A stretch of DNA of 64,000 nucleotides from a virus: positions 68,092-132,091 of the IMG/VR virus record IMGVR_UViG_3300029305_002985; one strand, written 5' to 3'. Of the stretch, positions 1 to 10,661 are shown one piece after another; position 1 is the first letter of the stretch; the number at the start of each line of letters is the position of its first letter. Below the pieces are notes generated by a model. It made no database searches. It was not told the origin of the DNA and worked only from the letters and a program-made list of their open reading frames with translations. Both the position numbers and the translations under genes were made by a program.

Positions 1-384
1 AAGGTCAAGTTTGTAGGTGTCCGCACCGATGCGGAAAGTGATGAGTTTTCCGCTATTGACCACAACAATGTCCTCTGCGTTGAGTGTCGGCAACATCTCC
101 GCTACTGCCTTTATGATGCCCTCTTTCGTGGGGTCATCCTTTTTCACACGCTCTCTCTGCGTTTTCGGTTTATACTCCGCGCGGGCTTGGTGTACTGTTG
201 CGGTTACGCGGTTTTCCTTTGCCTTTTGGCACAGGGCTTCCTGTTCGGCATTGACCTCATACCCCTCGTCCTCAAGCCACATTTGGATTGCTTCGCGTTG
301 GGTCAGCCCCAACATCTTGCGGTATGTGGCTATGGTGTTATCGGGGATATTGACGCGCTTGCCACCTTTGAGTTCATAAAGCAT
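1..384 (-). CDS. hypothetical early protein, possibly DNA-binding (start codon at 384-382; C-terminus lies beyond the window start)
   Basis: Minus-strand ORF MLYELKGGKRVNIPDNTIATYRKMLGLTQREAIQMWLED... with RBS AAGGAAGGAG about 8 nt upstream of the ATG. It is absent from the ORF track because no stop falls inside the window. Its promoter region overlaps the GTTCACAA repeats. Confidence 0.5.
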   Translation of the reverse strand, partial: MLYELKGGKRVNIPDNTIATYRKMLGLTQREAIQMWLEDEGYEVNAEQEALCQKAKENRVTATVHQARAEYKPKTQRERVKKDDPTKEGIIKAVAEMLPTLNAEDIVVVNSGKLITFRIGADTYKLDL

Positions 385-404
385 ATCGGTATTCGCTCCT
401 TCCT

Positions 405-478
405 TTTTATTACATATATATTATACCATAAAGTTGTGAACACCGTATGAACAAATTGTGAACATTTTGTGAACTTTA
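405..478 (-). promoter_or_regulatory. promoter (TGgTATAAT extended -10) overlapped by four GTTCACAA direct repeats at about 11-bp spacing
   Basis: Minus strand reads aagTTCACAAaatgTTCACAAtttgTTCATAcggtgTTCACAActttatggTATAAT. Repeats start near 434, 446, 457 and 468. Confidence 0.45.
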
Positions 479-481
479 TGG

Positions 482-505
482 GGAGGGGGCTTATAGCCCC
501 CTCAT
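482..505 (-). terminator. GC-rich hairpin downstream of the 507-854 gene
   Basis: gagggggc-ttat-agccccctc inverted repeat immediately after the stop codon (minus strand). No clear U-tract. Confidence 0.35.
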
Positions 506-506
506 A

Positions 507-854
507 TTAGGCGAGGGAGAAAGTGGAAACTTTCTTTTCCACCGACTTGATGACCTCACCGCTTGCGACCATCTTGCCAAGCATAGCGGTCACCTTTTGA
601 ACGGTGATGTCGGGGTAATCTGCGACCAGTGCCTTATGCACCTCGCTTGCGCGCTTGCCACCGTTTGCAAGCACCTCGGAGATTGCGATGAAATACTTTT
701 CATCGGCTTCGGCTTTCTTTGCGTTTGCGCTACCGCGCTTTGCATCTGCCTGTGCGATTTTCTTTTCGCACCACGCGACCACCTCGGCATCGTTCGCCAT
801 AGCGGAGATAATGCGGTTGAGAATGTCTTTGGAAGTAACCTTTTCGTTTGCCAT
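507..854 (-). CDS. hypothetical early protein, 115 aa; paralog of the 1404-1754 gene
   Basis: ORF with RBS GAAAGGAAAGG 9 nt upstream of the ATG. Shares ...DEK(Y/F)F.AI..VLA.G.KRA.EV..AL..D.TIQKVTAML.KMVA..V.K.VEKKVSTF.L with the protein at 1404-1754. Confidence 0.7.
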   Translation of the reverse strand: MANEKVTSKDILNRIISAMANDAEVVAWCEKKIAQADAKRGSANAKKAEADEKYFIAISEVLANGGKRASEVHKALVADYPDITVQKVTAMLGKMVASGEVIKSVEKKVSTFSLA

Positions 855-939
855 AGTGTTGTACCTTTCCTTTCATAGATAGAAGATTGATTTGTGGATT
901 GCGGTTTGGGAGAGCCGTACGCTCTCTCCCTCTCTGCTC

Positions 940-1003
940 TTATATTATACCATACTTTGAGCCGTTTGTCAAGGGGTTTTTGAAAAGTTTTTCAAATTTT
1001 TTT
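940..1003 (-). promoter_or_regulatory. early promoter, P1 type: UP-like palindrome TTGAAAA-N-TTTTCAA, -35 TTGACA, 17-nt spacer, TGgTATAAT
   Basis: Reverse complement reads ccTTGACAaacggctcaaagtatggTATAATataag. The -35 is at 967-972 and the -10 at 944-949. A stem-loop (GGGAGAGAGCGTACGGCTCTCCC) lies in the 5' UTR. Confidence 0.6.
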
Positions 1004-1189
1004 TCGCACCGCCTTGCGCTTGCGCTCTCTGTCTTGGTACATTTATATTATACCACAAACGGACGCGGATTGCAAGAGCAATACTGCACAAAATTTAGGT
1101 TGTTTTGTGGGAATTTTTTGTGCAAAATGCCGAGCGAGGTTTGCGCGGAAAAAGTTAGGTAAGGCTAACACCACGCGCAAATCGGCTCT

Positions 1190-1262
1190 GGAGCGACCGC
1201 TCCAGAGCCGGCAAATAAAAAAGGCGCGAGCCGTCGCTCACGCCTTTCCCGCGCGGTTGTGA
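1190..1262 (-). terminator. tandem rho-independent terminators downstream of the 1404 gene
   Basis: Minus-strand hairpins GCCGGCTCTGGAGCGGTCGCTCCAGAGCCG and GGCGTGAGCGACGGCTCGCGCC, the second followed by TTTTTTATTTGCC. Confidence 0.55.
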
Positions 1263-1403
1263 TGGCGTGATAGCCACCACGATAGACGGAGCAGGGGGTT
1301 TCACCCTCACACTCTCTCCCGGTGGCCGCCGTCGCGGTCGGGGGCGATTTCCTTTTTAATCTATCCGTCTATGTAGAGGGGCTTACGCCCCTCTGTGGGT
1401 GGA

Positions 1404-1754
1404 TTACTCGGCATCCTCACCCTCGCCATCAACCCCAAAGTTGAGGGCGAAAGTGGACACCTTCTTCTCCACGGTCTTGGTTACGCGCTTTGCCGCAACC
1501 ATCTTGGTGAGCATAGCCGTGACCTTCTGAATGGTCAGACCATCCATATCCTTTGCAAGCGCATTGAATACCTCGGTGGCGCGCTTGCCCTTGCCATCCG
1601 CGAGAACATCCGCAATCGCGTCAAAGAACTTCTCGTCCTCTGCGTTCTTCTTGGAGTTGGCGGAAATCGCCTTCTTCTCCAACTTTGCGATGCGCTCCTC
1701 GCAGAACTTGATGAGGTCATCGTGACCGCCGATTTCCTCGAACACGGAAATCAT
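1404..1754 (-). CDS. hypothetical early protein, 116 aa, paralog of 507-854. A probable N-terminal extension runs to the ATG at 1808 through an in-frame TAG at 1775-1773.
   Basis: ORF MISVFEEIGGHDD.... Upstream in frame: ATG(1808) GCT ACT GTT GTA AAG GCA AAG GCA CCC ACT TAG AAG GAG CAG TTC GGC AAG ATG(1754). The ATG at 1808 has the same RBS geometry as the paralog (AAAAGGAAGG + 9 nt). Confidence 0.6.
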   Translation of the reverse strand: MISVFEEIGGHDDLIKFCEERIAKLEKKAISANSKKNAEDEKFFDAIADVLADGKGKRATEVFNALAKDMDGLTIQKVTAMLTKMVAAKRVTKTVEKKVSTFALNFGVDGEGEDAE

Positions 1755-1865
1755 CTTGCCGAACTGCTCCTTCTAAGTGGGTGCCTTTGCCTTTACAACA
1801 GTAGCCATAGTAGTGTACCTTCCTTTTCTTATTTTTTTTATTGTCAGCGGCTCTCGCCTTACTGC

Positions 1866-1935
1866 TCTTATATTATACCACATTCCGTGGGGTTTGTCAA
1901 GAGGTTTTGCGAAAAATTTTTATTTTTTTCGCGCC
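1866..1935 (-). promoter_or_regulatory. early promoter P1 type (TTGACA-17-TGgTATAAT)
   Basis: Reverse complement ccTCTTGACAaaccccacggaatgTGgTATAAT. The -35 is at 1895-1900 and the -10 at 1872-1877. An A/T-rich UP-like segment lies upstream. Confidence 0.6.
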
Positions 1936-1953
1936 CTTTGTGGGGGAGAGGGA

Positions 1954-2721
1954 TTAACCCTCTCCCTTGATGGTGAATTTGATACCGCTATCGTTGGGGA
2001 GTTTGCGCTTGTTGGTATAGGGGAAGATATGCTCCTCGCCATCTGCGGAAACTACCTTAAACTCGCGCATAAGGTTGCGCGGAATGGAGCGATATACCTT
2101 GTAGTCGGTGTTCCACTCTGCGCCATTGATGATACAATAGTGCAGAATATCCAACTCAATCTCGGCATCCGCAAGGGCGGTGTGCGCTTCATCAAACTCT
2201 GCGTTCTGCGAGAGGAAACGATATACACTCTCTGCGGTGGTGGCAAAATTGCCACTTTCGGTGAACAGTTTATGCTTTTCGCAAAACTCTTGGTATGCGG
2301 TTTGGAAAGCGATAAACTTGTGGACATATCCGCGAATATCGTGGATTTTCACATTATCAAGCGGATTTGGGGTATGATGCCACTCGGCATTGAACGCGAA
2401 TACGCGCTTGTCAAAGTCGCTATTGAACGCATAGGCATCAGTAATGCCGAACTGTTCAATATCACTTGCGACCTTTGCCGCTACCCATTCCCATTTATGC
2501 TTGGTCATAAGGCGGTTAGCAAGCATATCCTCATAGCGCGCTCTCTTGTCCGCATAATATGCGGTGGAAAAGAGCATCATATTGTTCCATACATCGGTGA
2601 CGATATAGGAACGCTTTGCGACTATAACCTCTCGCTCGGTGTCAAACACACAGTAGCCGAGGTCATAGCAGAACGGCTTTTCAAGATTAGCCGTTTCGGT
2701 GTCAAAGACCATAATGTTCAT
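1954..2721 (-). CDS. DEDDh-family 3'-5' exonuclease (DnaQ/RNase T-like; comparable to T4 DexA-type phage exonucleases)
   Basis: N-terminal Exo I motif MVFDTETANL (D-x-E), central acidic motifs, and C-terminal Exo III motif HTALADAEIEL (H-x4-D). RBS GAGAGGAAA. 255 aa. Confidence 0.75.
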   Translation of the reverse strand: MNIMVFDTETANLEKPFCYDLGYCVFDTEREVIVAKRSYIVTDVWNNMMLFSTAYYADKRARYEDMLANRLMTKHKWEWVAAKVASDIEQFGITDAYAFNSDFDKRVFAFNAEWHHTPNPLDNVKIHDIRGYVHKFIAFQTAYQEFCEKHKLFTESGNFATTAESVYRFLSQNAEFDEAHTALADAEIELDILHYCIINGAEWNTDYKVYRSIPRNLMREFKVVSADGEEHIFPYTNKRKLPNDSGIKFTIKGEG

Positions 2722-2777
2722 CGGGGGTGTTTTCCTCTCTTTCTACCATAGGGGGTAGCCCTCGCTCCCCACTCGGT

Positions 2778-2850
2778 ACTTATATTATACCACATCTTGT
2801 GGCTTTTGTCAAGGGGTTTTTCAAAAGTTTTTTGAAAAATTTTTTCGAGC
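2778..2850 (-). promoter_or_regulatory. early promoter P1 type (TTGACA-17-TGgTATAAT) with UP-like TTGAAAA/TTTTCAA element
   Basis: -35 at 2807-2812 and -10 at 2784-2789 (reverse complement). Same cassette as at 940-1003. Confidence 0.6.
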
Positions 2851-2905
2851 CTTGCAAGGTGGCTTTTTCAAACGAAGCACGAAGCAACTACCGAAGCCCT
2901 CGCCC

Positions 2906-2990
2906 CTTGACATTTATAATTATACCACAAATGCGGGAAAATTGCAATAGGCAAATTGCACAAAGTTTTGCACAAAAATTTGTGCAAATT
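2906..2990 (-). promoter_or_regulatory. second upstream promoter P2 type (TTGCAA-17-TGgTATAAT) plus TTGCACAAAGTTTT motif and palindrome TTGCACAAAAATTTGTGCAA
   Basis: -10 at 2920-2925 and -35 at 2943-2948 (reverse complement). Motif at 2957-2970, 9-bp-arm palindrome at 2969-2988. Confidence 0.5.
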
Positions 2991-2995
2991 ACCAC

Positions 2996-3062
2996 TTGAC
3001 AGGCAAAACGGCTCGTGGCGCAGGACCACGAGCCGGCAAAAAGAGGGCGATTACTCGCCCTC
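2996..3062 (-). terminator. tandem rho-independent terminators downstream of the 3051 gene
   Basis: Minus strand: GAGGGCG-AGTAAT-CGCCCTC followed by TTTTT, then GGCTCGTGG-TCCTGCGC-CACGAGCC followed by GTTTTGCC. Confidence 0.65.
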
Positions 3063-3272
3063 AATTTCCTTCCAGTACTCCTCTTCCTCTTCGTTGGAGT
3101 TGATGTCAAGATAGACAATGTCGTCTTCTGCCGTAACCTCGCCAACCGTGCGGTAGTAGGCATCAATTTCATCTGTATCATTGTTGGGAACAAGGACAAT
3201 ATTGTTACCTTTTCCTTCTCCCATCAATTTGGTGAAAAACGCGTGCATCTCTTTTACAGTATAAACTTTCAT
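3051..3272 (-). CDS. hypothetical acidic early protein, 73 aa
   Basis: ORF with RBS AAGGAGA. Co-transcribed with the AbrB-like gene upstream, since no promoter lies between them. Confidence 0.55.
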   Translation of the reverse strand: MKVYTVKEMHAFFTKLMGEGKGNNIVLVPNNDTDEIDAYYRTVGEVTAEDDIVYLDINSNEEEEEYWKEIEGE

Positions 3273-3316
3273 TTTTCATTCTCCTTTATGTTTTTATGTA
3301 GAGGGCGTTTCCGCCC

Positions 3317-3790
3317 TCAATCATCCTCGTTGCGGATGGCATACTCTGCCGTGCGCACCATTGCGCGCACAAGTTTACTGTCTGCATCTTTGGGGAGAAC
3401 AAGGTATGCGATGGGTTGACATTGGTCACGGATGGGCACGACATAGTGGTCACCAATCTCCATTGCGCTCGTTGCGCAAGTTTCGAGGTGTTTGGGGAAA
3501 GAAGGGTTGTTTCGTCTGTTGACGAACAACAGTTCATCACTCTCGTTATAGAGAGCCACCGCATCTTCGCCAAACTCCATAGCCGCGCTACCATACAGTG
3601 CTTTGAGAATGGATTTGATGTTCTTTTCCTCGGTCACCATATGCTTCTTGAAGCAGACATACTTGCCATCCTCGCTCATATAGATTTCAAGGGGGTCGCC
3701 CTCGCGGATATGGAAATTTCTGCGGATTTCCTTAGGGATAACCACGCGACCGAGGTCATCAATTCTGCGAACAATTCCAGTTGCTTTCAT
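3317..3790 (-). CDS. AbrB/SpoVT-family transcription regulator (N-terminal swapped-hairpin domain plus C-terminal extension)
   Basis: N-terminus MKATGIVRRIDDLGRVVIPKEIRRNFHIREGDPLEIY is the canonical AbrB/MazE/SpoVT DNA-binding motif. 157 aa. Confidence 0.75.
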   Translation of the reverse strand: MKATGIVRRIDDLGRVVIPKEIRRNFHIREGDPLEIYMSEDGKYVCFKKHMVTEEKNIKSILKALYGSAAMEFGEDAVALYNESDELLFVNRRNNPSFPKHLETCATSAMEIGDHYVVPIRDQCQPIAYLVLPKDADSKLVRAMVRTAEYAIRNEDD

Positions 3791-3829
3791 AGTAAATACC
3801 TTCCTTTATGTTGTTATGTATGAGGGGCA

Positions 3830-4291
3830 TTAAAGCCCCTCTTTGATAAGGCGGAACAGGTCAAACAGACCATCGGCATCAACCGCGATACCGCCATTGT
3901 TCACCCACTCTCTGCGGTTGCGCTCCTCATCATCGACAAGGAAGCCGAAGCCCTCTGCCACGGTATATTTGGGAGTGCCGTATGCGAGAATGTGGATTTC
4001 GTCAAACTCAACCGAGGGCAGGTGCTTTGCCAACCACTTGCGCTTGACCTCTGCGACCTCTGCGTTATAGGCATCGGTTGCGTTCTTGGCAAGCCACGAG
4101 AGGACACAGACCTTAACCCCTTGCTTGCGGAGAGCGTTGATATAGCGCGCCATCGTAGCCATATGCACCATCGGCTTGGCTTGCGCGTAGGGGGTTGCGA
4201 TGTGGTTTTCAAGCATTTCGCGCCAACCCTCAACCGCGTAGAGGTCAGCGAAAGTTCCGTCCATATCAAGGTAAATGCGGATTTCGTTCAT
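3830..4291 (-). CDS. HAD-superfamily hydrolase, 5'(3')-deoxyribonucleotidase-like
   Basis: Motif I IYLDMDGTFADL (DxDGT) at the N-terminus. Size and pattern resemble NT5C-type nucleotidases. 153 aa. Confidence 0.6.
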   Translation of the reverse strand: MNEIRIYLDMDGTFADLYAVEGWREMLENHIATPYAQAKPMVHMATMARYINALRKQGVKVCVLSWLAKNATDAYNAEVAEVKRKWLAKHLPSVEFDEIHILAYGTPKYTVAEGFGFLVDDEERNRREWVNNGGIAVDADGLFDLFRLIKEGL

Positions 4292-4315
4292 AGTATGTTC
4301 TCCTTTTCCTTTGGT

Positions 4316-4390
4316 ACTTATATTATACCATACTTTTGGTGGTTTGTCAAGAGGGTTTTCAAAAAAAGTTGCAATCTTTTTTCAAGCAAG
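4316..4390 (-). promoter_or_regulatory. early promoter P1 type (TTGACA-17-TGgTATAAT)
   Basis: -35 at 4345-4350 and -10 at 4322-4327 (reverse complement). Confidence 0.6.
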
Positions 4391-4450
4391 GGTCTGTTTC
4401 TGTTCACTACCCTTCGCGCGTTTGGGTTTCTGTGTCCTTCCTCTCCCCTC

Positions 4451-4520
4451 TTGACATACTAATTATACCACATTCACGGGATTTTGTCAACAGTCAAGTT
4501 GCACAAAGTTTCGCGCGGAA
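4451..4520 (-). promoter_or_regulatory. upstream P2-type promoter plus GTTGCACAAAGTTT motif
   Basis: Reverse complement TTGACA...TGgTATAAT followed by TAGTATGTCAAG. Motif at 4498-4513. Confidence 0.45.
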
Positions 4521-4540
4521 AATGACCGAGGTTTGGTGAT

Positions 4541-4598
4541 AATGCACAAAACGGCACGCGGCGAGCGCCCGCGTGCCGAGCGAAAGAAAGGGCGCGGA
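4541..4598 (-). terminator. tandem terminators downstream of the 4599 gene
   Basis: Minus strand GGACGCGGAGTAATCCGCGCCC followed by TTTCTTTC, then GGCACGCGGGCGCTCGCCGCGTGCC followed by GTTTTGTGC. Confidence 0.55.
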
Positions 4599-4826
4599 TT
4601 ACTCCGCGTCCTCTTCTTCTACCTGTATTACTGCTTCTGTGGAAAAATCGCTCTCCACGGAATTGTGATACATATTTAACTTGCCCTCATTGTAGAGCAT
4701 CATCACTGCATCTTTAAGGGAGCATTCTTCTTCTTCTGCGCACTCTTGCACGAGTTGGCTTTGTTCCTCATCAAGATAACAAGTGTAAGTTACTGTTGCT
4801 TCAACAGTTACCGCAAATCTTGCCAT
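4599..4826 (-). CDS. hypothetical acidic early protein, 75 aa
   Basis: ORF with RBS AAAGGAGAAAAAAC. Preceded by the conserved hairpin-ACATAAAAACATAAAGGAG leader. Confidence 0.55.
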   Translation of the reverse strand: MARFAVTVEATVTYTCYLDEEQSQLVQECAEEEECSLKDAVMMLYNEGKLNMYHNSVESDFSTEAVIQVEEEDAE

Positions 4827-4878
4827 TGTTTTTTCTCCTTTATGTTTTTATGTATCGGCGTGGATTGCTCCGCGCCGA

Positions 4879-5214
4879 TTAAAGAGCCATCATAAAATTC
4901 CACCACCAAACCATCCAGCCGATGAACAAAAGAAAACCTATAATAAGGAAAACACCTCGGCATAAATTTCTTTGGTTCTTTTTTATCTTATATTGCTTCA
5001 TCTTTTGCTCATAATCTTTAAGAGCCGCTTCCCACAATTCTTTGCTTTCATAGTGTCGTGGATAGGGATAGCTGGGTCTAGAAAAGTCTGCGGCTAAATA
5101 TTCCCAACACCAACCAGTTACGACAACAAATATAATTGTGCAAAATAACATCAAGATTGCCATAATTTTTACCCCCAAATCATAATGATAAGATTGTATG
5201 CGTTCATCACCCAC
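4879..5214 (-). CDS. small membrane protein (2 TM). An alternative start at 5163 (MAILMLF...) is coupled to the upstream stop.
   Basis: Hydrophobic segments ILMLFCTIIFVVVTGW and VFLIIGFLLFIGWMVWWW. TAAAAATTATG overlap with the upstream gene. Confidence 0.5.
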   Translation of the reverse strand: MGDERIQSYHYDLGVKIMAILMLFCTIIFVVVTGWCWEYLAADFSRPSYPYPRHYESKELWEAALKDYEQKMKQYKIKKNQRNLCRGVFLIIGFLLFIGWMVWWWNFMMAL

Positions 5215-5420
5215 AGTGCCACATTAAGCACCACCAAGTTGATGCGCCTTGCTTGCCAACAAAATGCCGTTGCGATGGTCGCGCCGATGAAGAACGGAAT
5301 TGTCGCGTTCACGCCACAGATAACCAACACCGCGCAAAGCACATAGATAAGTGCGGTGATGTCGGTCACATCAAAGCGGTATGCGCGGTTGAGTTCAAAG
5401 TAGTTCTTAAATGCACGCAT
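5169..5420 (-). CDS. small membrane protein, 83 aa, 2-3 TM
   Basis: Segments ALIYVLCAVLVICGV and FFIGATIATAFCW. RBS GAGGTG. Its start overlaps the end of the 5407 gene. Confidence 0.55.
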   Translation of the reverse strand: MRAFKNYFELNRAYRFDVTDITALIYVLCAVLVICGVNATIPFFIGATIATAFCWQARRINLVVLNVALWVMNAYNLIIMIWG

Positions 5421-5589
5421 CTTCTAACACCTCGTTTCCATCGCTTTCAAAGATTGCGGCGGTTGTGAAGCCCCAACCGCAACCGCATCTGTAATAACTT
5501 ATTCTCTTGATAGTCCAACCATTTTCTTCATATTCGGTTTCAAAGAGTTTAGGTTGCGCGGTGCTACCGCAGTTAGGACACTTTACCAT
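5407..5589 (-). CDS. zinc-ribbon protein, 60 aa
   Basis: CPNCG ... CGCGWG four-Cys arrangement. Confidence 0.5.
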   Translation of the reverse strand: MVKCPNCGSTAQPKLFETEYEENGWTIKRISYYRCGCGWGFTTAAIFESDGNEVLEDACI

Positions 5590-5590
5590 T

Positions 5591-5776
5591 TTATAACTCT
5601 CCTAACTTGATAACAGAAATAATCACAAAGTCTGTTACCATATTCTCTTTGCTATTATAGTGGTCGGGCAAAGCGGCAAGCCACTCCGCAAGGTCGCGTT
5701 CGTGCCAGATAAAATTATTGCAATCGACCTCAAAGCGGTCAAGACTTGCGGAATAAAGTGTTGCAAGATAGGTCAT
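5591..5776 (-). CDS. hypothetical protein, 61 aa (start MTYLATLYS)
   Basis: The ORF-track upstream extension overlaps the promoter -10 (ATGTGGTATAAT), so the true start is the ATG at 5776, after RBS GAGAGGAGAACATAAAA. Confidence 0.5.
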   Translation of the reverse strand: MTYLATLYSASLDRFEVDCNNFIWHERDLAEWLAALPDHYNSKENMVTDFVIISVIKLGEL

Positions 5777-5802
5777 TTTTATGTTCTCCTCTCTCTTGGT
5801 AT

Positions 5803-5862
5803 TATTATTATACCACATTTGATTGAGTTTGTCAAGGGGTTTTATAAATTTTTTTGGAAGGT
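5803..5862 (-). promoter_or_regulatory. early promoter P1 type (TTGACA-17-TGgTATAAT) for the 5776-to-4879 operon
   Basis: -35 at 5830-5835 and -10 at 5807-5812 (reverse complement). Confidence 0.6.
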
Positions 5863-5896
5863 CTTATCTCCTAGAGCGTACCACGCACTTCCTCCC

Positions 5897-5965
5897 CTTG
5901 ACAATAATATTATATCACATTTGCAGGAAATAGTCAATAGTCAAAATCACCAAAGTTTCGCTCGC
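5897..5965 (-). promoter_or_regulatory. upstream P2-type promoter plus motif variant TCACCAAAGTTT
   Basis: Same cassette family as 2906-2990. CTTGACAATAATATTATATCAC. Confidence 0.4.
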
Positions 5966-5995
5966 AAAAATGGCGGCAACTGGTTAAATTGCACA

Positions 5996-6030
5996 AAACG
6001 GAGCGCGCCGACCCTGCGCGCTCCGCTCGG
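5996..6030 (-). terminator. rho-independent terminator downstream of the 6145 gene
   Basis: Minus strand GGAGCGCGCAGGGTCGGCGCGCTCC followed by GTTTTGTGCAA. Confidence 0.55.
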
Positions 6031-6144
6031 AACTTTAGGCAAAAATAAAAAAGCCTAGACACGAGAAATTCGGTCTAGAAATTGTGGAAGAGGTCTACTT
6101 CGCGGAAAACCGACGCTCGCACGATCGCTTGCGCCGTCCAGCGA

Positions 6145-6444
6145 TTACTGGAAGTGTTTAATCACATCTTGTGCATTGTATTCATTTTCGTCTTTCTCCA
6201 AGATAATAATTGTTCTTTCAATTTCGGCACAGTTGCCTAAATTTTGGATGGTTGAAATAACTTTCGAAATCTCTTCCGCACAATCATTTTTTGTCCCGTC
6301 AGAATGGAAGAGTAGCCGCGCGGACTCTTTGCAAAATAACGCGTGAACCGCGAAATCCGTGGCGGCAACTGCCTCCCACTCAAGAGGGACAAGAGAAGAC
6401 TCAAAAGGTGTTAGCACAAGAGCGTGGATTAAATGATACTCCAT
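6145..6444 (-). CDS. hypothetical early protein, 99 aa
   Basis: ORF with RBS AAAAGGAGG. Promoter TTGACA-17-TATAAT directly upstream at 6450-6508. Confidence 0.6.
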   Translation of the reverse strand: MEYHLIHALVLTPFESSLVPLEWEAVAATDFAVHALFCKESARLLFHSDGTKNDCAEEISKVISTIQNLGNCAEIERTIIILEKDENEYNAQDVIKHFQ

Positions 6445-6449
6445 CGCTT

Positions 6450-6508
6450 TGACCTCCTTTTATCTCTTTGTATTATTATTATAATATAAATTTTTCAAAA
6501 TGTCAAAT
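6450..6508 (-). promoter_or_regulatory. promoter TTGACA-17-TATAAT
   Basis: Reverse complement atTTGACAttttgaaaaatttatatTATAATaataatacaaagagataaaaggagg. Confidence 0.6.
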
Positions 6509-6509
6509 G

Positions 6510-6549
6510 CGGCAGACCTAGGTTTTTCTTCCTTGACCTAGGTCTGCCG
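6510..6549 (-). terminator. 14-bp perfect-stem hairpin (terminator for the 6683-6557 operon)
   Basis: gcggcagacctagg-N14-cctaggtctgccgc. On the minus strand it is followed by ATTTGACATTTTG. Confidence 0.55.
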
Positions 6550-6556
6550 CACTTTC

Positions 6557-6661
6557 AAAATTCATCGTAGTGTTCAGCCGCATCTTTCTCATCCTTTGGG
6601 ATAGCGCCCCAAAAGATGCCAAGCACCGCCGCAAAAATAAAGATTACCGCGATTTCCATAG
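6557..6661 (-). CDS. 34-aa hydrophobic membrane peptide
   Basis: MEIAVIFIFAAVLGIFWGAIPKDEKDAAEHYDEF with RBS GGAGAAAACT. Below the ORF-track size cutoff. Confidence 0.4.
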
Positions 6662-6682
6662 TTTTCTCCTTTTGAAGGGCGA

Positions 6683-7189
6683 TTACTCGCCCTTCTGCAA
6701 TTTAAGATATTCTTTTACCATTTCGGCAACATCTACCGAACTACCGCGCGTTTGTGCCATTCTGATTTTTTCTTCAAAGGGGTGCGCCTTGCGCCATTCA
6801 AGTGCAATTTGCTCTTGTTCAAGATTGTAAGCAATACATTGTTCGTATTCTTCTTCAAAGTTGAGTTCACGGAAGCGGTCTGTCAAGGTGTCATTTTTGG
6901 TTTCACAAGTGACAATGTTGATGCTTGCCCACACCATTATCACAAAGCAAGCGACCGCGCCAACCGCGAAGCGCCAATCCCAATAGGTGTCTGCCAAACA
7001 AGCGAAAGTGAGGGTTGCGATGAACAAAGGCAACCAAAGGTACAAGCAAAAGTGTTGAAGCCACTCGTTGCGGTTAATGGCTTTTTCAGTCTGCTGGTCA
7101 ACCTCTTTTGCAAAAGCCTTTTCCTCATTGTCAAAGCCATTGGTGTTGGGGTTAAAGGTCTTGTAGGTGAAGCAACGAGAGAGTGTCAT
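6683..7189 (-). CDS. membrane protein, 168 aa, 2 TM
   Basis: Segments LYLWLPLFIATLTFACL and AVGAVACFVIMVWASINIV. Confidence 0.6.
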   Translation of the reverse strand: MTLSRCFTYKTFNPNTNGFDNEEKAFAKEVDQQTEKAINRNEWLQHFCLYLWLPLFIATLTFACLADTYWDWRFAVGAVACFVIMVWASINIVTCETKNDTLTDRFRELNFEEEYEQCIAYNLEQEQIALEWRKAHPFEEKIRMAQTRGSSVDVAEMVKEYLKLQKGE

Positions 7190-7262
7190 TGTTCTGTTCT
7201 CCTTTTGATGTAGTGTTCAAGAAGGGCTCTGTATCTGTTGCTCCGTCACTGGCGGAATGTTT

Positions 7263-7360
7263 GTGTCATCCCCTCTTGACACTTATATTATATCATAAAT
7301 GCAGGATTTCGTCAATAGGCAAGTTGCACAAACTTTTGGCGCGGAAATTGTGCAAGGTGC
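7263..7360 (-). promoter_or_regulatory. P2-type promoter (TTGACG-17-TGaTATAAT) with upstream GTTGCACAAACTTTTGG motif and inverted partner ATTGTGCAAGG
   Basis: Reverse complement cctaTTGACGaaatcctgcatttatgaTATAATataagtgtcaag. Motif at 7324-7340. Confidence 0.5.
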
Positions 7361-7376
7361 TAGGCTACAGTAAAAT

Positions 7377-7430
7377 CGCGCCGTGGCAAACGGTCACGGC
7401 GCGGCGAGAGTTTCCTCTCAACCGCGCCGC
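7377..7430 (-). terminator. tandem hairpins downstream of the 7435 gene
   Basis: gcgccgtg-gcaaacggt-cacggcgc and gcggcg...cgccgc. On the minus strand they are followed by GATTTTACTG. Confidence 0.45.
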
Positions 7431-7434
7431 GCGC

Positions 7435-7746
7435 TTAATTCATTTTGAAGATGGGGTCAATGTCAATCGGCACAGGGCAGTTCTCTCCATAGCACTCAAT
7501 GGTGATGGAGTAGCGCTTCGTGCGCCAAAATTCGCGGTTCCACGGCTTGTAGTAGACAACCATAGAGATTTTGTGCTTGCTTCGGTTGTGGTCGATGGGA
7601 CAGACTTTTTCAGCAAAACTGCACACCTGCTCGTTTGCGCCCTTGCGCTTTTTGAGTATTTCGATGGCTTTAGCTCGTGCCGTGGTGAAATCGGTGAAGG
7701 CGCGCTTTTCGTGATGGTAGTTGACCATAAATACAGACATTTTCAT
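7435..7746 (-). CDS. hypothetical protein, 103 aa, third gene of the MazF-like operon
   Basis: ORF 17 nt downstream of the MazF-like gene, with RBS AAAAGGAGAACATAACA. Confidence 0.55.
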   Translation of the reverse strand: MKMSVFMVNYHHEKRAFTDFTTARAKAIEILKKRKGANEQVCSFAEKVCPIDHNRSKHKISMVVYYKPWNREFWRTKRYSITIECYGENCPVPIDIDPIFKMN

Positions 7747-7762
7747 TGTTATGTTCTCCTTT

Positions 7763-8110
7763 TCAAAATAGATTGAGTTGAATTTTGAGCGCTTTGCTTA
7801 CTCTTGCCATTTCCTCGGCGGTGGCTTCGCCCATATACTTGGACAGTCGGCACTTGTCAATGGTGCGGACTTGCTCACAGAGGATAGTGCCTTTGATGGC
7901 GCGTCCCTCAATGGGATAGAGGGTTGCGTGGGTGGGAATAGGTTTCTTGACTTGGGAGGTTATGGAGCAAACCGTGACCGTGGTGCTTCGCGCGTTGTTA
8001 ATGTCATTTGACACAATCAATACAGGGCGCAAACCGCCTTGCTCGCTACCCCTTGCAGGGGAGAGGTCAGCGTAGAAAATCTGACCTCTCTTGATAGGGT
8101 TATTCATCAT
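7763..8110 (-). CDS. PemK/MazF-family endoribonuclease toxin homolog, about 115 aa
   Basis: MMNNPIKRGQIFYADLSPARGSEQGGLRPVLIVSNDINNARSTTVTVCSITS...ATLYPIEGRAIKGTILCEQVRTIDKCRL matches the MazF/PemK/Kid fold motifs. Start taken as the ATG at 8110; the longer ORF-track extension is unlikely. Confidence 0.7.
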   Translation of the reverse strand: MMNNPIKRGQIFYADLSPARGSEQGGLRPVLIVSNDINNARSTTVTVCSITSQVKKPIPTHATLYPIEGRAIKGTILCEQVRTIDKCRLSKYMGEATAEEMARVSKALKIQLNLF

Positions 8111-8321
8111 AGTCAAACCCCTCAACCACCTTGCGCTCGGTATGCGCCTCACAGTGGTACATAACCTCACCCGTCCAACGATTGACCACATCGCACACAT
8201 CGGCGTGTCCGCAATCCACACGGATATAGCCGTATGCTTTTGCATCGTCAAGTTCCTCAAAGTCCGCCTTGTGCTTGCCATCAAGCAGTACCATAAGGTC
8301 GCAGGTTTCAATGTTCATCAT
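8100..8321 (-). CDS. Cys/His-rich 73-aa protein overlapping the MazF-like start by 11 nt; candidate non-canonical antitoxin
   Basis: Overlap geometry typical of antitoxin-toxin pairs. Motif DCGHADVCDV...YHCEAH. No MazE/AbrB-like fold is recognisable. Confidence 0.5.
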   Translation of the reverse strand: MMNIETCDLMVLLDGKHKADFEELDDAKAYGYIRVDCGHADVCDVVNRWTGEVMYHCEAHTERKVVEGFDYDE

Positions 8322-8364
8322 AATATGTTCTCCTTTTCTTGTCGGGGTCTTACCCCTTTGACAC

Positions 8365-8440
8365 TTATATTATACCACATTTGTGGCAGTTTGTCAAGGG
8401 GTTTTTCAAACTTTCTTTGAAAAATTTTTTATCAACAGTG
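8365..8440 (-). promoter_or_regulatory. early promoter P1 type (TTGACA-17-TGgTATAAT) with UP-like palindrome
   Basis: -35 at 8392-8397 and -10 at 8369-8374 (reverse complement). Confidence 0.6.
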
Positions 8441-8496
8441 AGTGGGGTTTGTTCCATTACCTTGCAAGTACCCCATATTCTTTTACTTCCTGTCCC

Positions 8497-8580
8497 CTTG
8501 ACACTTATATTATATCACATTTTCGGGATAAATGCAATAGGCAGAATAGACAAAGTTTCGCACAAGTTTTTGTGCAAAAT
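8497..8580 (-). promoter_or_regulatory. upstream P2-type promoter plus GACAAAGTTTCG motif and palindrome GCACAAGTTTTTGTGC
   Basis: CTTGACACTTATATTATATCAC. Palindrome at 8559-8576. Confidence 0.45.
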
Positions 8581-8594
8581 GCTAGCCCACCCAC

Positions 8595-8648
8595 AAAACG
8601 GCTCGGCGCGACCCACGCCGAGCCGCTGAACAAAGAAAGGTTGGGCTT
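8595..8648 (-). terminator. tandem rho-independent terminators downstream of the 8647 gene
   Basis: Minus strand GGTTGGGCATAAGCCCAACC followed by TTTCTTTGTT, then GGCTCGGCGTGGGTCGCGCCGAGCC followed by GTTTTGTG. Confidence 0.6.
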
Positions 8649-8925
8649 ATGCCCAACCCCTCTCTTTTTTAATTTGTTCGTAGCGCTCTGCCTTTTCGCG
8701 CTCGATTTTTTCTTTATCATACACGCGACACTTGATGCCCGTGTAGCCATACTTTTTGAGGTCTGCGCCGCTCCAATAGCGCTTTGCGCATATCTTCTTG
8801 ACGCCTTCCATTTGGTAGTGGCTCTTGTTCTCACAGTATGCCGCTATGCTCGGCACTTCAATGATTGCGCTGACCGCGCGATAGCCTTTGTCGCTTACGA
8901 GAGTGACCTGAATTTGTTTGCTCAT
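8647..8925 (-). CDS. hypothetical basic protein, 92 aa
   Basis: ORF in an ATGA-overlapped operon with the 8922-9116 gene. Confidence 0.55.
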   Translation of the reverse strand: MSKQIQVTLVSDKGYRAVSAIIEVPSIAAYCENKSHYQMEGVKKICAKRYWSGADLKKYGYTGIKCRVYDKEKIEREKAERYEQIKKERGWA

Positions 8926-9116
8926 TTGTTCTTACCTCTCTTTCTCTTTTTGTATGCCTTATAGATGGCACGACCGATGGGGATTGCAAGCATTGGGGAG
9001 AAGATTGCGCAGACCGCAATGGTGAGTTTTTCATCCCACGCATATTGGTCATCAATCAAAATGCAAATCCAAGTGTTAAGGAGTATCCAACCGAGAATAA
9101 TTGCAAGTGCTATCAT
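8922..9116 (-). CDS. small membrane protein, 64 aa, 2 TM
   Basis: Segments IALAIILGWILLNTWICILI and AVCAIFSPMLAIPIG, with a basic tail. Confidence 0.55.
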   Translation of the reverse strand: MIALAIILGWILLNTWICILIDDQYAWDEKLTIAVCAIFSPMLAIPIGRAIYKAYKKRKRGKNK

Positions 9117-9130
9117 CTTATGTACCTCTC

Positions 9131-9200
9131 TTTCTGTACTTTTATTATATCATATTTGCTTGCTCTTATCAATAGGCATTATGCACAAAGTTTTGGGGCG
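9131..9200 (-). promoter_or_regulatory. promoter TTGATA-17-TGaTATAAT plus TTATGCACAAAGTTTTGGGG motif
   Basis: Reverse complement cctaTTGATAagagcaagcaaatatgaTATAATaaaagtacag. Confidence 0.5.
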
Positions 9201-9207
9201 GGACTTG

Positions 9208-9516
9208 TCAACAATAGACAAGTCCCATATCGCGCCAGCGCAACACGCTGATTTGATTGCACGCGCGCCCGACTTCCAGCGCTTCGCGCTTCGTTGCTAC
9301 GCGGTGGCTTTTGTCGATATAGTAAACACCTTCGCTGAACCAAACACCGCAGTTGCCGCTATATGCCTTTACTGCATTGATGGCTTCGCGTGCGGTGCGG
9401 CACTCGATGCCCTCGGTGGCTACTTGGTAGCCTGTCTTATGGGTGATGCACTTGCCGCCTTTAAGCGTCAAGCCGTCATTGTCACGCAGTTTGAGAATGG
9501 TGCGAATGTTAATCAT
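9208..9516 (-). CDS. hypothetical protein, 102 aa (start MINIRTILKL)
   Basis: ATG at 9516 preceded by GGTTTACAGTT. The longer ORF-track version runs into the upstream promoter. Confidence 0.5.
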   Translation of the reverse strand: MINIRTILKLRDNDGLTLKGGKCITHKTGYQVATEGIECRTAREAINAVKAYSGNCGVWFSEGVYYIDKSHRVATKREALEVGRACNQISVLRWRDMGLVYC

Positions 9517-9559
9517 AACTGTAAACCTCTTGTATGTATTCAGTAGGGGTTGTACTTCC

Positions 9560-9626
9560 CCCTTCTGTACCTTAATTATACCACACTTTGCACCTTTTGT
9601 CAATAGACAAGTTGCACAAAGTTGAG
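9560..9626 (-). promoter_or_regulatory. promoter TTGACA-17-TGgTATAAT plus GTTGCACAAAGTT motif
   Basis: Reverse complement tctaTTGACAaaaggtgcaaagtgTGgTATAATtaagg. Confidence 0.55.
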
Positions 9627-9642
9627 GTTGGGGTTTTGGTTA

Positions 9643-9810
9643 TTATCCCCAAACCTCTGCTTCTGCTTGCGCGGCAGTGGTGTAAACAGTGGTGGCAAGC
9701 ACGCGCCCGTTGTTTGCTTGTGCGAACTCTTGTGCCGCGGCTTCAGTGGTGAACATAGCAAGAAGGTCAGCCTCAAACTCGGTGTTTTCCCATACTGCGT
9801 AGATAGTCAT
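9643..9810 (-). CDS. hypothetical 55-aa protein
   Basis: MTIYAVWENTEFEADLLAMFTTEAAAQEFAQANNGRVLATTVYTTAAQAEAEVWG with RBS GAGAGG. Below the ORF-track cutoff. Confidence 0.45.
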   Translation of the reverse strand: MTIYAVWENTEFEADLLAMFTTEAAAQEFAQANNGRVLATTVYTTAAQAEAEVWG

Positions 9811-9845
9811 TTTTTGTACCTCTCATTTATGTATTTGGAAGGTCT

Positions 9846-9900
9846 TTCCCCTTCCTTCTGTAATAATTATACTACTTTTTGCCTCATTTGTCAAGCCTTT
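9846..9900 (-). promoter_or_regulatory. promoter TTGACA-17-TATAAT
   Basis: Reverse complement ggcTTGACAaatgaggcaaaaagtagTATAATtattacagaaggaagg. Confidence 0.55.
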
Positions 9901-10018
9901 TTCAGGATTTTTTCTTCGTCATTTTGCACAAAATTTCGCGCGATTTTTATTTGATAGTTGTGCATTCTGCCCAACATAGGGCCCGCGCGGCCGCACACGA
10001 AAGCACAAGGCACTGTGC

Positions 10019-10336
10019 TTAATCAGCACAGTACCCTCTGCGATAGTTATTATTTATTGCGGTGAAGAGGAAGTGCGGCAGCCGCTCAATGCGAAAGTGT
10101 CTCTTCACTTGCCCCACAGTAGGACAGTACATAGTGATGATTTCCTCTTGTTGATTGCGGATAATCATCACACCAGTGGAAGTGAGATAGAGAGTGACAG
10201 CCTCGCGCCATTCTCTTCTATCCTCTTCTTTGATAGTCATCACTGTTCTACCAAAGCCAACCTCTGTGGCAATTCTTGCATACCTGTCAAGCCTGTCTTG
10301 CTCCATGTGTTTTGTAAGAGTTACTCTCATCATCAT
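10019..10336 (-). CDS. hypothetical protein, about 105 aa (start MMMRVTL)
   Basis: ATG at 10336 lies 5 nt after RBS GAGGTGA. It is co-transcribed with the 10347-10508 gene (10-nt gap). Confidence 0.5.
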   Translation of the reverse strand: MMMRVTLTKHMEQDRLDRYARIATEVGFGRTVMTIKEEDRREWREAVTLYLTSTGVMIIRNQQEEIITMYCPTVGQVKRHFRIERLPHFLFTAINNNYRRGYCAD

Positions 10337-10346
10337 GGCGCTCACC

Positions 10347-10508: not shown

Positions 10509-10555
10509 TGTTCTTTACCTCTTTTTATGTATTTGGAAGGGGTCTCTCTCCCTCT

Positions 10556-10645: not shown

Positions 10646-10661
10646 TTTATTAATCCTCGTA

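What the first reader, a model, noticed from the sequence alone, without database searches (positions are those of the whole stretch)
1404..1808. One early gene (paralog pair member) carries an in-frame TAG at codon 12 between a canonical RBS-ATG and the downstream ORF
The 507-854 gene starts at an ATG placed 9 nt after GAAAGGAAAGG. Its paralog at 1404-1754 has an identically placed ATG at 1808 (AAAAGGAAGG + 9 nt). This is followed by MATVVKAKAPT-TAG-KEQFGK-M(1754)ISVFEE..., all in frame. Either the gene is translated only from the internal Met19 before the code switch and as an N-extended isoform after TAG becomes sense, giving two temporal isoforms, or it is a recent nonsense mutation. It is the only TAG-dependent reading in the standard-code early block.
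Basis: seen in the sequence. Interest (0 to 1): 0.7.

Follow-up and report, generated by a model that had tools for sequence, protein, structure and literature searches.

The report
Amber codon in an early phage gene
In a gut phage that reads the stop codon TAG as glutamine in its late genes, one early regulator-like gene carries a single TAG exactly where its relatives have a glutamine codon, most likely a recent tolerated one-base change rather than an evolved timing switch.

Summary
On the minus strand, an ATG at 1808 lies 9 nt after AAAAGGAAGG. It opens a frame that hits TAG at codon 12 (1775-1773) and continues through Met19 (1754) to the TAA at 1404.

The 18-codon extension is real coding sequence. 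About 85 orthologues carry it (MAT[IV]VKAKAPTQKEQF...). In every other genotype checked at DNA level (about ten), codon 12 is CAG (Gln).

The phage reads TAG as Gln in late genes:
- There are 150 in-frame TAGs in the late genes.
- Where relatives differ at those sites, they mostly have CAG or CAA.
- No gene ends in TAG.

Non-late genes avoid TAG: 1 of 223 Gln-type codons, against 23% in late genes.

The TAG allele occurs in one clone only, in contigs 99.99-100% identical from at least 7 samples. The nearest CAG relative differs at 16 of 405 nt, with pN/pS of about 0.1.

Best reading: a recent C-to-T change that is synonymous under code 15. It is tolerated through suppression, possible restart at Met19 and a paralogue.

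The two-isoform timer idea is not excluded. A second strain has TAG at codon 13, but that allele is not conserved either.

This is a new instance of a known phenomenon, of modest interest.

The parts
1870..1900 (-). Host-type (sigma-A/sigma-70 consensus, extended -10) promoter of the P2 gene: TTGACAA-N13-TGGTATAATAT
   Evidence: It matches the pattern exactly. It is one of 12 such sites, all on the minus strand between 942 and 10868, against 0.01 expected by chance. It scores 12 of 12 hexamer matches with a TG extension.
1818..1827 (-). Shine-Dalgarno AAAAGGAAGG, 9 nt upstream of the ancestral start
   Evidence: Read directly. The sequence is conserved in all orthologous loci. Duplex energy with the anti-SD is -10.1 kcal/mol, against a gene mean of -11.2 +/- 2.4.
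1404..1808 (-). Full-length P2 gene: 134 codons if TAG is read as Gln, plus the TAA stop. It encodes an early winged-helix-like protein.
   Evidence: About 85 orthologues of 127-139 aa start at this ATG. The AF2 model has residues 1-11 disordered, helix 12-26, helix 30-71 and a wHTH at 77-122. Foldseek matches Fur, PerR, BlaI and MarR DNA-binding domains at marginal E-values.
1773..1775 (-). In-frame TAG, codon 12. It is derived from CAG (Gln) by one C-to-T transition.
   Evidence: This codon is CAG in L008-L018, L024-L028, L032 and L035. It is TAG only in the window and its clonal copies L001-L007.
1773..1808 (-). 11-codon mini-ORF (MATVVKAKAPT-stop), which is what standard-code translation from the ancestral start would give
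   Evidence: Sequence. The consequence is inferred.
1767..1772 (-). AAGGAG (codons 13-14, Lys-Glu), immediately after the TAG and 12 nt before the Met19 ATG. It is a possible Shine-Dalgarno for restart.
   Evidence: Sequence. Duplex energy is -10.4 kcal/mol. The motif is ancestral, because it is present in the CAG-bearing L011, L015 and L025-L028.
1752..1754 (-). Met19 ATG, the start of the 116-aa product called under the standard code
   Evidence: This Met is present only in part of the family; others have Ile, Phe and other residues here.
1282..1372 (-). Degenerate tRNA-like element 3' of P2, in the same transcription unit as far as can be judged
   Evidence: It has a 9-bp acceptor-like stem, a T-arm-like hairpin and an inner CCGCGACGGCGG hairpin. 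Relatives carry ARAGORN-called aberrant tRNAs in the same slot.
1211..1244 (-). Terminator-like hairpin GGCGTGAGCGACGGCTCGCGCC followed by T6
   Evidence: Sequence. It is conserved in L013. The simple terminator scan did not report it.
507..854 (-). Paralogue P1 (115 aa), 50% identical to P2, with no TAG and its own consensus promoter at 972-942

Best explanation
P2 (1808-1404, minus strand) is an early gene driven by a host-type promoter. It encodes a roughly 134-residue winged-helix-like protein, probably DNA-binding.

In this one phage clone, codon 12 has changed from CAG to TAG by a single C-to-T transition. That codon is Gln in all relatives and sits at the first turn of helix 1. The phage decodes TAG as Gln in its late genes, so the change is synonymous once amber suppression is active and a stop before that.

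Inferred consequence:
- Early in infection, ribosomes starting at ATG1808 terminate after 11 codons.
- Some of them may restart at ATG1754, which lies 18 nt downstream with AAGGAG 12 nt before it. That would give a 116-residue protein lacking the basic tail and half of helix 1.
- The full 134-residue protein is made only when the suppressor is available.

I consider this a recent, tolerated spill-over of the CAG-to-TAG drift that is under way in the late genes. Suppression, possible restart and the paralogue P1 would buffer it. I do not consider it an evolved timing device.

Shown:
- the sequence;
- the ancestral state CAG;
- conservation of the extension;
- TAG = Gln at codon level;
- TAG avoidance in non-late genes;
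- clonality of the allele.

Inferred:
- the timing of suppression;
- restart at Met19;
- neutrality or mild cost of the change.
For: 1. The extension is ancestral coding sequence. About 85 orthologues carry MAT[IV]VKAKAPTQKEQF. T11 and K13 are at least 90% conserved even across the P1-type paralogues. The paralogue alignment crosses the TAG.

2. Codon 12 is CAG in every other DNA-verified genotype.

3. TAG is read as Gln.
- There are 150 in-frame TAGs in 22 of 36 late genes.
- Where the window and L021 differ at a TAG, L021 has CAG in 3 of 3 cases.
- Against L019, Gln codons account for 6 of 14 and 9 of 17 non-TAG partners. No other codon partners more than twice in either direction; the commonest is GAA, twice.
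- No gene ends in TAG: 0 of 59 in the window and 0 of 30 outside it.
- The distant relative Phass-1 is a published code-15 phage with tRNA-Sup-CTA genes (PMC10607447).

4. CAG-to-TAG turnover is ongoing. The sigma-factor gene has 6 TAGs here, 3 or 4 in relatives about 98% identical in protein, and is polymorphic at codon 162.

5. The allele is confined to one clone. L001-L007 are 99.99-100% identical to the window over up to 11.7 kb. The closest CAG alleles differ at 16-21 of 405 nt, with pN/pS of 0.09-0.13.

6. Buffers exist.
- An ancestral AAGGAG-N12-ATG lies downstream of the TAG.
- Paralogue P1 is 50% identical.
- In L011 the two paralogues have merged into a single hybrid gene, so two copies are not essential.
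Against: - TAG is strongly avoided in non-late genes: 1 of 65 Gln-type codons in the window's early block against 150 of 652 in late genes (Fisher p = 3.5e-6), and 0 of 158 in further non-late genes. A TAG here should therefore carry a cost, yet the clone was assembled from at least 7 samples.
- A second, independent TAG lies at the adjacent codon 13 of the same gene in another strain, L024. Only one other early-gene TAG turned up in about 38,000 aligned early codons of relatives. That clustering hints at something specific to this spot. However, P2 was sampled roughly ten times more deeply than other early genes, and the comparison with the P1-type paralogue (2 of about 85 sequences against 0 of about 90) is not significant.
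- No suppressor tRNA gene was found in the roughly 84 kb of this roughly 138-kb genome that I could reach. Its existence and timing are inferred.
Confidence: 0.6

Rival explanations
1. Evolved translational timer with two isoforms. The amber codon near the start of an early-transcribed regulator delays the full-length protein until the phage's suppressor is active. Before that, restart at Met19 yields a shorter protein with a different or antagonistic activity.
For: - The gene has a perfect host-type promoter, while the rest of the early block excludes TAG.
- An independent TAG lies at the neighbouring codon 13 in L024.
- The skipped segment is highly conserved, and helix 1 begins exactly at codon 12, so the short and long forms should differ in function.
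- Met19 has an SD-like AAGGAG of normal strength.
- Borges et al. proposed the same logic for an in-frame-stop homing endonuclease inside an early gene.
Against: - The TAG is found in one clone only. Every other DNA-verified genotype and about 85 protein variants have Gln.
- The L024 allele is a singleton on a 1-kb contig and replaces a nearly invariant Lys. Suppression would not restore that residue.
- Met19 and the AAGGAG predate the TAG and are not conserved across the family.
- The sampling-matched comparison with P1 is not significant.
Confidence: 0.15
2. Loss or reduction of function in progress. The TAG is a plain nonsense mutation in a dispensable, redundant gene (paralogue P1 covers the function), and the gene is at the start of decay.
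For: - Paralogue redundancy exists.
- L011 carries a single P2/P1 hybrid instead of two genes.
- L024 has TAG at a nearly invariant Lys.
- A relative has TGG-to-TAG in another early gene, which code 15 would not repair.
Against: - There is no other lesion, and pN/pS is 0.09-0.13 against the nearest alleles.
- The mutation hits exactly a Gln codon, which is the one case where code-15 reading restores the ancestral protein.
- P2-type genes are retained at full length in nearly all relatives.
Confidence: 0.15
3. Mis-assigned start. The real gene begins at Met19, and the upstream ATG...TAG stretch is untranslated leader that happens to be in frame. This is the explanation Borges et al. gave for single in-frame stops in integrase genes.
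For: Standard-code gene callers annotate the 116-aa form. Borges et al. found that such cases in integrases were start-prediction artefacts.
Against: - Orthologues start at the upstream ATG with the same SD, and they conserve the 18 residues.
- Many orthologues lack a Met at position 19.
- The paralogue alignment spans the site.
Confidence: 0.02
4. Sequencing or assembly error in the window.
For: None found.
Against: The sequence is identical in 7 loci from JGI, ENA and Logan assemblies of at least 7 samples.
Confidence: 0.01

Closest known systems
Code-15 (TAG to Gln) alternatively coded gut phages with standard-code early genes (Borges et al. bioRxiv 10.1101/2021.08.26.457843; Peters et al. 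PMC9523058; Phass-1 group, Babkin et al. PMC10607447)
   Same: - In-frame TAGs are concentrated in late and structural genes.
- Early and replication genes are compatible with the standard code.
- TAG is not used as a terminator.
- TAG aligns with Gln.
- The genome is about 135-138 kb, and the portal is 42% identical to that of Phass-1.
   Different: Here one early gene with a host-type promoter carries a TAG inside conserved coding sequence. That is an exception to the early/late partition. The published single in-frame stops in early-type genes (integrases) were attributed to wrong start calls, which is not the case here. No suppressor tRNA has yet been located for this phage.
Termination-reinitiation (translational restart) after an early nonsense codon, as classically seen for amber mutants of lacI and T4 rIIB (from my own knowledge)
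   Same: A stop codon is followed within 18 nt by an in-frame ATG that has an SD-like AAGGAG. This is the geometry that allows restart and an N-terminally truncated product.
   Different: Restart is only inferred here. The restart signals are ordinary ancestral codons (Lys-Glu...Met) and were not selected for this role.
Programmed stop-codon readthrough that generates two protein forms (for example the Q-beta A1 protein or MuLV Gag-Pol; from my own knowledge)
   Same: One mRNA could yield a product that stops at the stop codon and a product that reads through it.
   Different: - Those stops are conserved and lie at the end of a functional ORF, so readthrough gives C-terminal extensions.
- This TAG is not conserved and lies at codon 12.
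- Readthrough here would depend on a phage-wide code change, not on local context.
Small winged-helix DNA-binding regulators (DNA-binding domains of Fur/PerR/Zur, BlaI/MecI, MarR, ArsR)
   Same: The predicted fold of residues about 60-122 superposes on these domains at 1.3-2.5 A over 60-66 residues. There is a weak Pfam hit to the MCM_C wHTH.
   Different: There is no significant sequence-family membership. The N-terminal half is two long helices with no metal-binding or dimerisation domain of those families. The function is untested.

Membership tests
Code-15 (TAG to Gln) recoded phage | Many in-frame TAG codons inside long, otherwise intact ORFs for essential phage proteins | tested here: met
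   There are 150 in-frame TAGs in 22 of 36 late genes, for example 42 in the 2487-codon ORF at 28882-36345 and 6 in the sigma-factor-like gene.
Code-15 (TAG to Gln) recoded phage | TAG positions correspond to Gln in homologues | tested here: met
   Codon-level DNA comparison gave:
- window against L021: TAG pairs with CAG in 3 of 3 differing sites;
- window TAG against L019: CAA or CAG in 6 of 14 cases;
- L019 TAG against window: CAA or CAG in 9 of 17 cases;
- P2 codon 12 is CAG in all other DNA-verified orthologues.

The protein-level tally was discarded, because some database proteins had been translated with TAG = Q.
Code-15 (TAG to Gln) recoded phage | TAG not used as a terminator | tested here: met
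   TAG ends 0 of 59 complete window genes (48 TAA, 11 TGA). It also ends 0 of 30 further genes in L001 and L038.
Code-15 (TAG to Gln) recoded phage | Phage-encoded amber suppressor tRNA (anticodon CTA) | tested here: inconclusive
   ARAGORN finds no tRNA in the window, L001-L004, L038 or L039. Together these cover about 84 kb of a roughly 138-kb genome. The tRNA-like elements next to P2 do not have a CTA anticodon. The rest of the genome could not be reached.
Code-15 (TAG to Gln) recoded phage | Early and replication genes readable in the host's standard code | tested here: met
   In-frame TAG makes up 1 of 65 Gln-type codons (TAG + CAG + CAA) in the window's early block. It makes up 0 of 69 in the genes beyond the window start and 0 of 89 in the replication module.
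Programmed readthrough or isoform-generating stop codon | The stop codon is conserved among relatives | tested here: not met
   TAG at codon 12 occurs only in one clone. About 10 other genotypes have CAG.
Programmed readthrough or isoform-generating stop codon | Both products are demonstrably made and functional | not testable with these tools
   This needs Ribo-seq, proteomics or reporter assays.
Termination-reinitiation | An in-frame start codon close downstream of the stop, preceded by an SD-like sequence | tested here: met
   The ATG lies 18 nt after the TAG, and AAGGAG lies 12 nt upstream of that ATG. Anti-SD duplex energy is -10.4 kcal/mol against a gene mean of -11.2. The 12-nt spacing is at the long end of what this phage uses.
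Termination-reinitiation | Restart product observed | not testable with these tools
   No expression data are available.
Winged helix-turn-helix DNA-binding proteins | Three-helix bundle plus beta-hairpin wing | tested here: met
   The AF2 model (pLDDT 78.7) has H77-85, H93-105, E109-114 and E117-122. The top Foldseek PDB hits are all wHTH regulators, with probability 1.0 but E of at least 2.9e-3.
Winged helix-turn-helix DNA-binding proteins | Significant match to a curated sequence family | tested here: not met
   Pfam gives nothing for P2. For P1 it gives only MCM_C at 18.8 bits, below the 27-bit cut-off.
SPbeta-like / Phass-like large siphophage group | Shared structural-module proteins (YonG, YonD, YonB domains; portal) | tested here: met
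   Precomputed Pfam YonG_N, YonD_N and YonB hits fall on the orthologous late genes of L019 to L021. The portal is 42% identical to Phass-1 and 31% to the roughly 140-kb Enterococcus phages.

The most novel reading that the evidence does not exclude
An amber codon placed in the first dozen codons of an early regulator acts as a translational clock. The mRNA is made at once from a host promoter. The full-length wHTH protein appears only when the phage's TAG-to-Gln suppression switches on, and a restart product from Met19 acts beforehand. The device would have arisen more than once: codon 12 in this clone and codon 13 in the strain of L024.
Probability: 0.13. Interest if true: 0.6.

Novelty: new member of a known kind. 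Interest (0 to 1): 0.3.

Why it matters
Stop-codon recoding in phages is thought to separate early from late translation, but the timing has hardly been tested. This gene could serve as a natural reporter for it.

- It is transcribed from a consensus host promoter.
- Its full-length product needs TAG to be read as Gln.
- It has near-identical CAG alleles to serve as controls.

Measuring when the 134-residue and 116-residue forms appear would show when suppression becomes effective. It would also show whether TAG avoidance in early genes reflects real early termination.

As it stands, this is one tolerated SNP in one clone. It is a useful example, not a new mechanism.

The case also gives a practical warning. 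Protein databases mix table-11 and table-15 translations of these phages, so a 'Q' in a database protein may itself be a TAG.

Tried and rejected
- blastn of the early region, and tblastn of P2, against INPHARED phages found nothing.
- A pattern-based search of IMG/VR with P2 found nothing.
- A DNA-pattern scan of the JGI metagenome collection for the conserved N-terminal codons gave only two true orthologues, both CAG-AAG.
- The protein-level tally of residues opposite late-gene TAGs was abandoned. Searches showed that some database proteins were translated with TAG = Q. I replaced it with codon-level DNA comparison.
- The search for the amber suppressor tRNA failed in the window, 8.6 kb beyond its start and about 10 kb beyond its end.
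- The aberrant tRNA-like genes beside P2 were considered as suppressors and rejected on their anticodon loops.
- Rfam gave no significant hit in the early block.
- The +4 nucleotide context of TAG showed no informative bias.
- Other short family members that might hide TAGs turned out to be contig-edge fragments: P0055 (L040) by its DNA and P0287 by its sequence.
- The 158-aa 'longer' forms (P0200, P0202) start at an ATG inside the -10 promoter box and are gene-calling artefacts.

Full report
**1. The observation**

The minus strand of the window reads as follows:
- TTGACAAACCCCACGGAATGTGGTATAATAT, the promoter, at 1900-1870.
- AAAAGGAAGG at 1827-1818, then a 9-nt spacer.
- ATG at 1808, then GCT ACT GTT GTA AAG GCA AAG GCA CCC ACT.
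- TAG at 1775-1773, then AAG GAG CAG TTC GGC AAG.
- ATG at 1754, continuing to TAA at 1406-1404.

The paralogue at 854-507 has the same layout: GAAAGGAAAGG, 9 nt, ATG. Every detail in the finding is correct.

Of 24 genes in the minus-strand block 1-12026, this is the only one with an in-frame TAG.

The exact 116-aa product that starts at Met19 is recorded on 23 contigs. Seven loci from JGI, ENA and Logan assemblies of at least 7 samples all show the identical upstream ATG and TAG. It is therefore not a sequencing error.

**2. What kind of genome this is**

The plus strand from 12185 to the window's end holds the late genes:
- a sigma-factor-like gene;
- the portal;
- orthologues of SPbeta YonG, YonD and YonB;
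- ORFs of 2487 and 1791 codons.

Twenty-two of the 36 late genes contain in-frame TAGs, 150 in all. That is 23% of TAG + CAG + CAA codons.

I first tallied the residues that face TAG in database homologues. I then found that the database had translated some of these contigs with TAG = Q ('translates_to_query: no'), so that tally is circular and I discarded it.

The valid evidence is at codon level:
- Between the window and L021 (96-98% protein identity), all three sites where one has TAG and the other does not are TAG against CAG.
- Against the more distant 134-kb genome (L019), window TAGs face CAA or CAG in 6 of 14 cases.
- L019 TAGs face window CAA or CAG in 9 of 17 cases.
- No other codon is a partner more than twice in either direction; the commonest is GAA, twice.

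No gene ends in TAG: 0 of 59 in the window and 0 of 30 in flanking loci.

The portal is 42% identical to that of Phass-1. That phage is a published 136-kb 'code 15 clade' phage with three tRNA-Sup-CTA genes (PMC10607447).

TAG = Gln is therefore well supported for this phage. I could not find its suppressor tRNA in the roughly 84 kb within reach.

**3. Early against late**

Twelve matches to TTGACAA-N13-TGGTATAATAT occur in the window, against 0.01 expected by chance. All lie on the minus strand between 942 and 10868. One lies directly upstream of P2. The block is therefore transcribed by the host polymerase, and calling it 'early' is a reasonable inference.

| Gene set | In-frame TAG / Gln-type codons (TAG + CAG + CAA) |
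|---|---|
| Window early block | 1 of 65 |
| Late genes | 150 of 652 |
| Non-late genes beyond the window start (L001) | 0 of 69 |
| Replication module beyond the window end (L038) | 0 of 89 |

The early-against-late difference gives Fisher p = 3.5e-6. So TAG is selected against wherever genes must be read before the code switch. P2 is the single exception in about 7,300 non-late codons of this genome.

**4. Is the 18-codon extension real?**

Yes. A profile search returned 77 clusters.
- The P2-type orthologues (127-139 aa) all begin MAT[IV]VKAKAPTQKEQF..., with Q exactly at the TAG position.
- T11 and K13 are at least 90% conserved, even across the P1-type paralogues.
- BLASTP between the window's own two paralogues aligns T11-TAG-K13 with T7-S8-K9.

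Because database Qs can hide TAGs, I fetched the DNA. L008-L018, L024-L028, L032 and L035 represent about ten distinct genotypes, from 77% up to about 96% nucleotide identity to the window. All have the same SD, the same ATG, and CAG at codon 12. The window's TAG is thus one C-to-T transition from an otherwise invariant CAG.

The AlphaFold model, built on a 41-sequence alignment (pLDDT 78.7), shows:
- residues 1-11 disordered;
- helix 1 at 12-26, which begins at the TAG/Gln codon;
- a long helix at 30-71;
- a winged helix-turn-helix at 77-122.

Foldseek matches the DNA-binding domains of Fur, PerR, Zur, BlaI and MarR, though at marginal E-values. A product that starts at Met19 would lack the basic tail and half of helix 1.

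**5. How old and how widespread is the allele?**

All TAG-bearing contigs are 99.99-100% identical to the window over up to 11.7 kb. This is one clone.

The closest CAG alleles (P0204; L025-L028) differ at 16-21 of 405 nt. They show pN/pS of 0.09-0.13 and no other lesion.

CAG-to-TAG turnover is visibly active in this lineage. The sigma-factor gene has 6 TAGs here and 3 or 4 in relatives about 98% identical in protein, with a polymorphism at codon 162 between L021 and L022.

**6. Other TAGs in early genes of relatives**

Scanning about 38,000 aligned early-gene codons in 23 loci found two further events:
- L024 is a 1-kb JGI contig whose product is called from Met15. It has CAG at codon 12 but TAG at codon 13, which is AAG (Lys) everywhere else.
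- The 134-kb genome (L008, L009, L019) has TAG where the window has TGG (Trp), at codon 52 of the membrane protein encoded at 6683-7189.

Two of the three known events therefore fall on adjacent codons of P2. This is suggestive, but P2 was sampled much more deeply than other genes. At matched depth the count is 2 of about 85 P2-type sequences against 0 of about 90 P1-type sequences, which is not significant.

Neither of these two extra TAGs replaces Gln, so code-15 reading would not restore the ancestral residue. That fits sporadic, tolerated nonsense mutations better than a designed feature.

**7. Mechanism**

Shown: the gene has a host-type promoter and a conserved SD and ATG, with a TAG at a Gln codon.

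Inferred:
- Before suppression is effective, translation from ATG1808 stops after 11 codons.
- The ATG at 1754 lies 18 nt beyond the stop, and AAGGAG lies 12 nt upstream of it.
- The anti-SD duplex energy is -10.4 kcal/mol, against -10.1 for the main start and -11.2 +/- 2.4 for all genes.
- Restart giving a 116-aa protein is therefore plausible.
- After suppression, the ancestral 134-aa protein is made.

These restart signals are ordinary ancestral codons. They are present in CAG-bearing relatives, and Met19 is absent from much of the family. Nothing indicates adaptation for restart.

**8. Verdict**

The most economical explanation (about 0.6) is a recent CAG-to-TAG substitution that is synonymous in code 15. 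It has leaked into an early gene, and it is tolerated because three things apply:
- suppression restores exactly the ancestral protein;
- a restart may supply a truncated form;
- a paralogue exists (in L011 the two paralogues have even fused into one gene).

| Reading | Probability |
|---|---|
| Recent tolerated CAG-to-TAG substitution | about 0.6 |
| Evolved timer or isoform switch | about 0.15 |
| Incipient gene loss | about 0.15 |
| Wrong start call | refuted |
| Sequencing error | refuted |

In kind, this is a new instance within the known phenomenon of phage stop-codon recoding (Borges et al.). Its main value is as a natural reporter for when the code switch happens.

Noticed in passing
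window 1372-1282 (-); L024 840-911; L015 10427-10498; L008 10430-10501; L010 528-614; L028 2960-3046; L013 ~1490-1575: Aberrant tRNA-like genes sit immediately 3' of the P2 gene in many strains.
- Some are 72-nt cloverleaves with a 6-nt anticodon loop (UUCGUU or GUAGGA).
- Others are 87-91-nt forms in which a CCGCGACGGCGG hairpin replaces the anticodon arm.

Acceptor stems differ by compensatory changes while the T arm is conserved. The slot is empty in L025 and L027. None has a CTA anticodon. Function is unknown.
   Followed up: partly
L024 433-435 (codon 13 of the P2 orthologue): A second, independent in-frame TAG in the same gene, one codon downstream of the window's TAG. It replaces a nearly invariant AAG (Lys). 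It is a singleton on a 1,034-bp JGI contig.
   Followed up: partly
L008 5464-5970, L009 2222-2728, L019 3656-4162 (orthologue of window 6683-7189, -): A related 134-kb phage has TAG at codon 52 of an early membrane protein, where the window has TGG (Trp) and L015 has CTT. This early-gene amber codon would become Trp-to-Gln under code 15.
   Followed up: partly
L011 9945-10316 (product P0003): One strain has a single 123-aa hybrid gene, with a P2-type N-terminal two-thirds and a P1-type C-terminus, in place of the two paralogues and the spacer between them. This is evidently a deletion by recombination between the paralogues.
   Followed up: partly
window 16386-21410, 23032-23824, 26173-27108, 28239-28772, 41941-42279, 43691-45100, 61882-62960 (+): A subset of late genes is completely free of TAG, although each has 1-28 CAG/CAA codons. 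They include the portal, YonD-like and YonB-like proteins and a virion structural protein. Neighbouring genes have up to half of their Gln positions as TAG, so recoding is patchy within the late block.
   Followed up: no
window 12185-13354 (+): The first plus-strand gene is a sigma-factor-like protein (phrog_5767, E = 3e-44) with 6 in-frame TAGs. If it drives late transcription, its own synthesis depends on amber suppression, which would place the code switch upstream of the transcriptional switch.
   Followed up: no
window 1118-10643, e.g. 2956-2987, 7324-7355: The 8-mer TTGTGCAA (and its complement TTGCACAA) occurs 15 times against 4.3 +/- 2.0 expected. Thirteen copies lie in the early block, clustered beside the host-type promoters. 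They are candidate operator sites for a phage regulator, possibly the wHTH P1/P2 proteins or the AbrB/MazE-like protein.
   Followed up: partly
window 3317-3790 (-) and 7763-8245 (-): The early block encodes a protein with a MazE/AbrB-type domain (E = 1.3e-9) and a PemK/MazF-like toxin homologue (E = 5e-30). They lie 4 kb apart rather than as an adjacent pair.
   Followed up: no
database proteins P0078, P0086 (loci L019-L023): The large protein collection holds some of these phage proteins translated with TAG = Gln ('translates_to_query: no'), alongside table-11 calls of the same phages. A Q in a database homologue can therefore itself be a TAG. This invalidated my first residue tally.
   Followed up: yes
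L038 12741-20798: Just beyond the window's end the genome turns to a minus-strand replication and nucleotide-metabolism module: dUTPase, NrdD with its activase, guanylate kinase and a PolC-like DNA polymerase III alpha. It has no in-frame TAG.
   Followed up: partly
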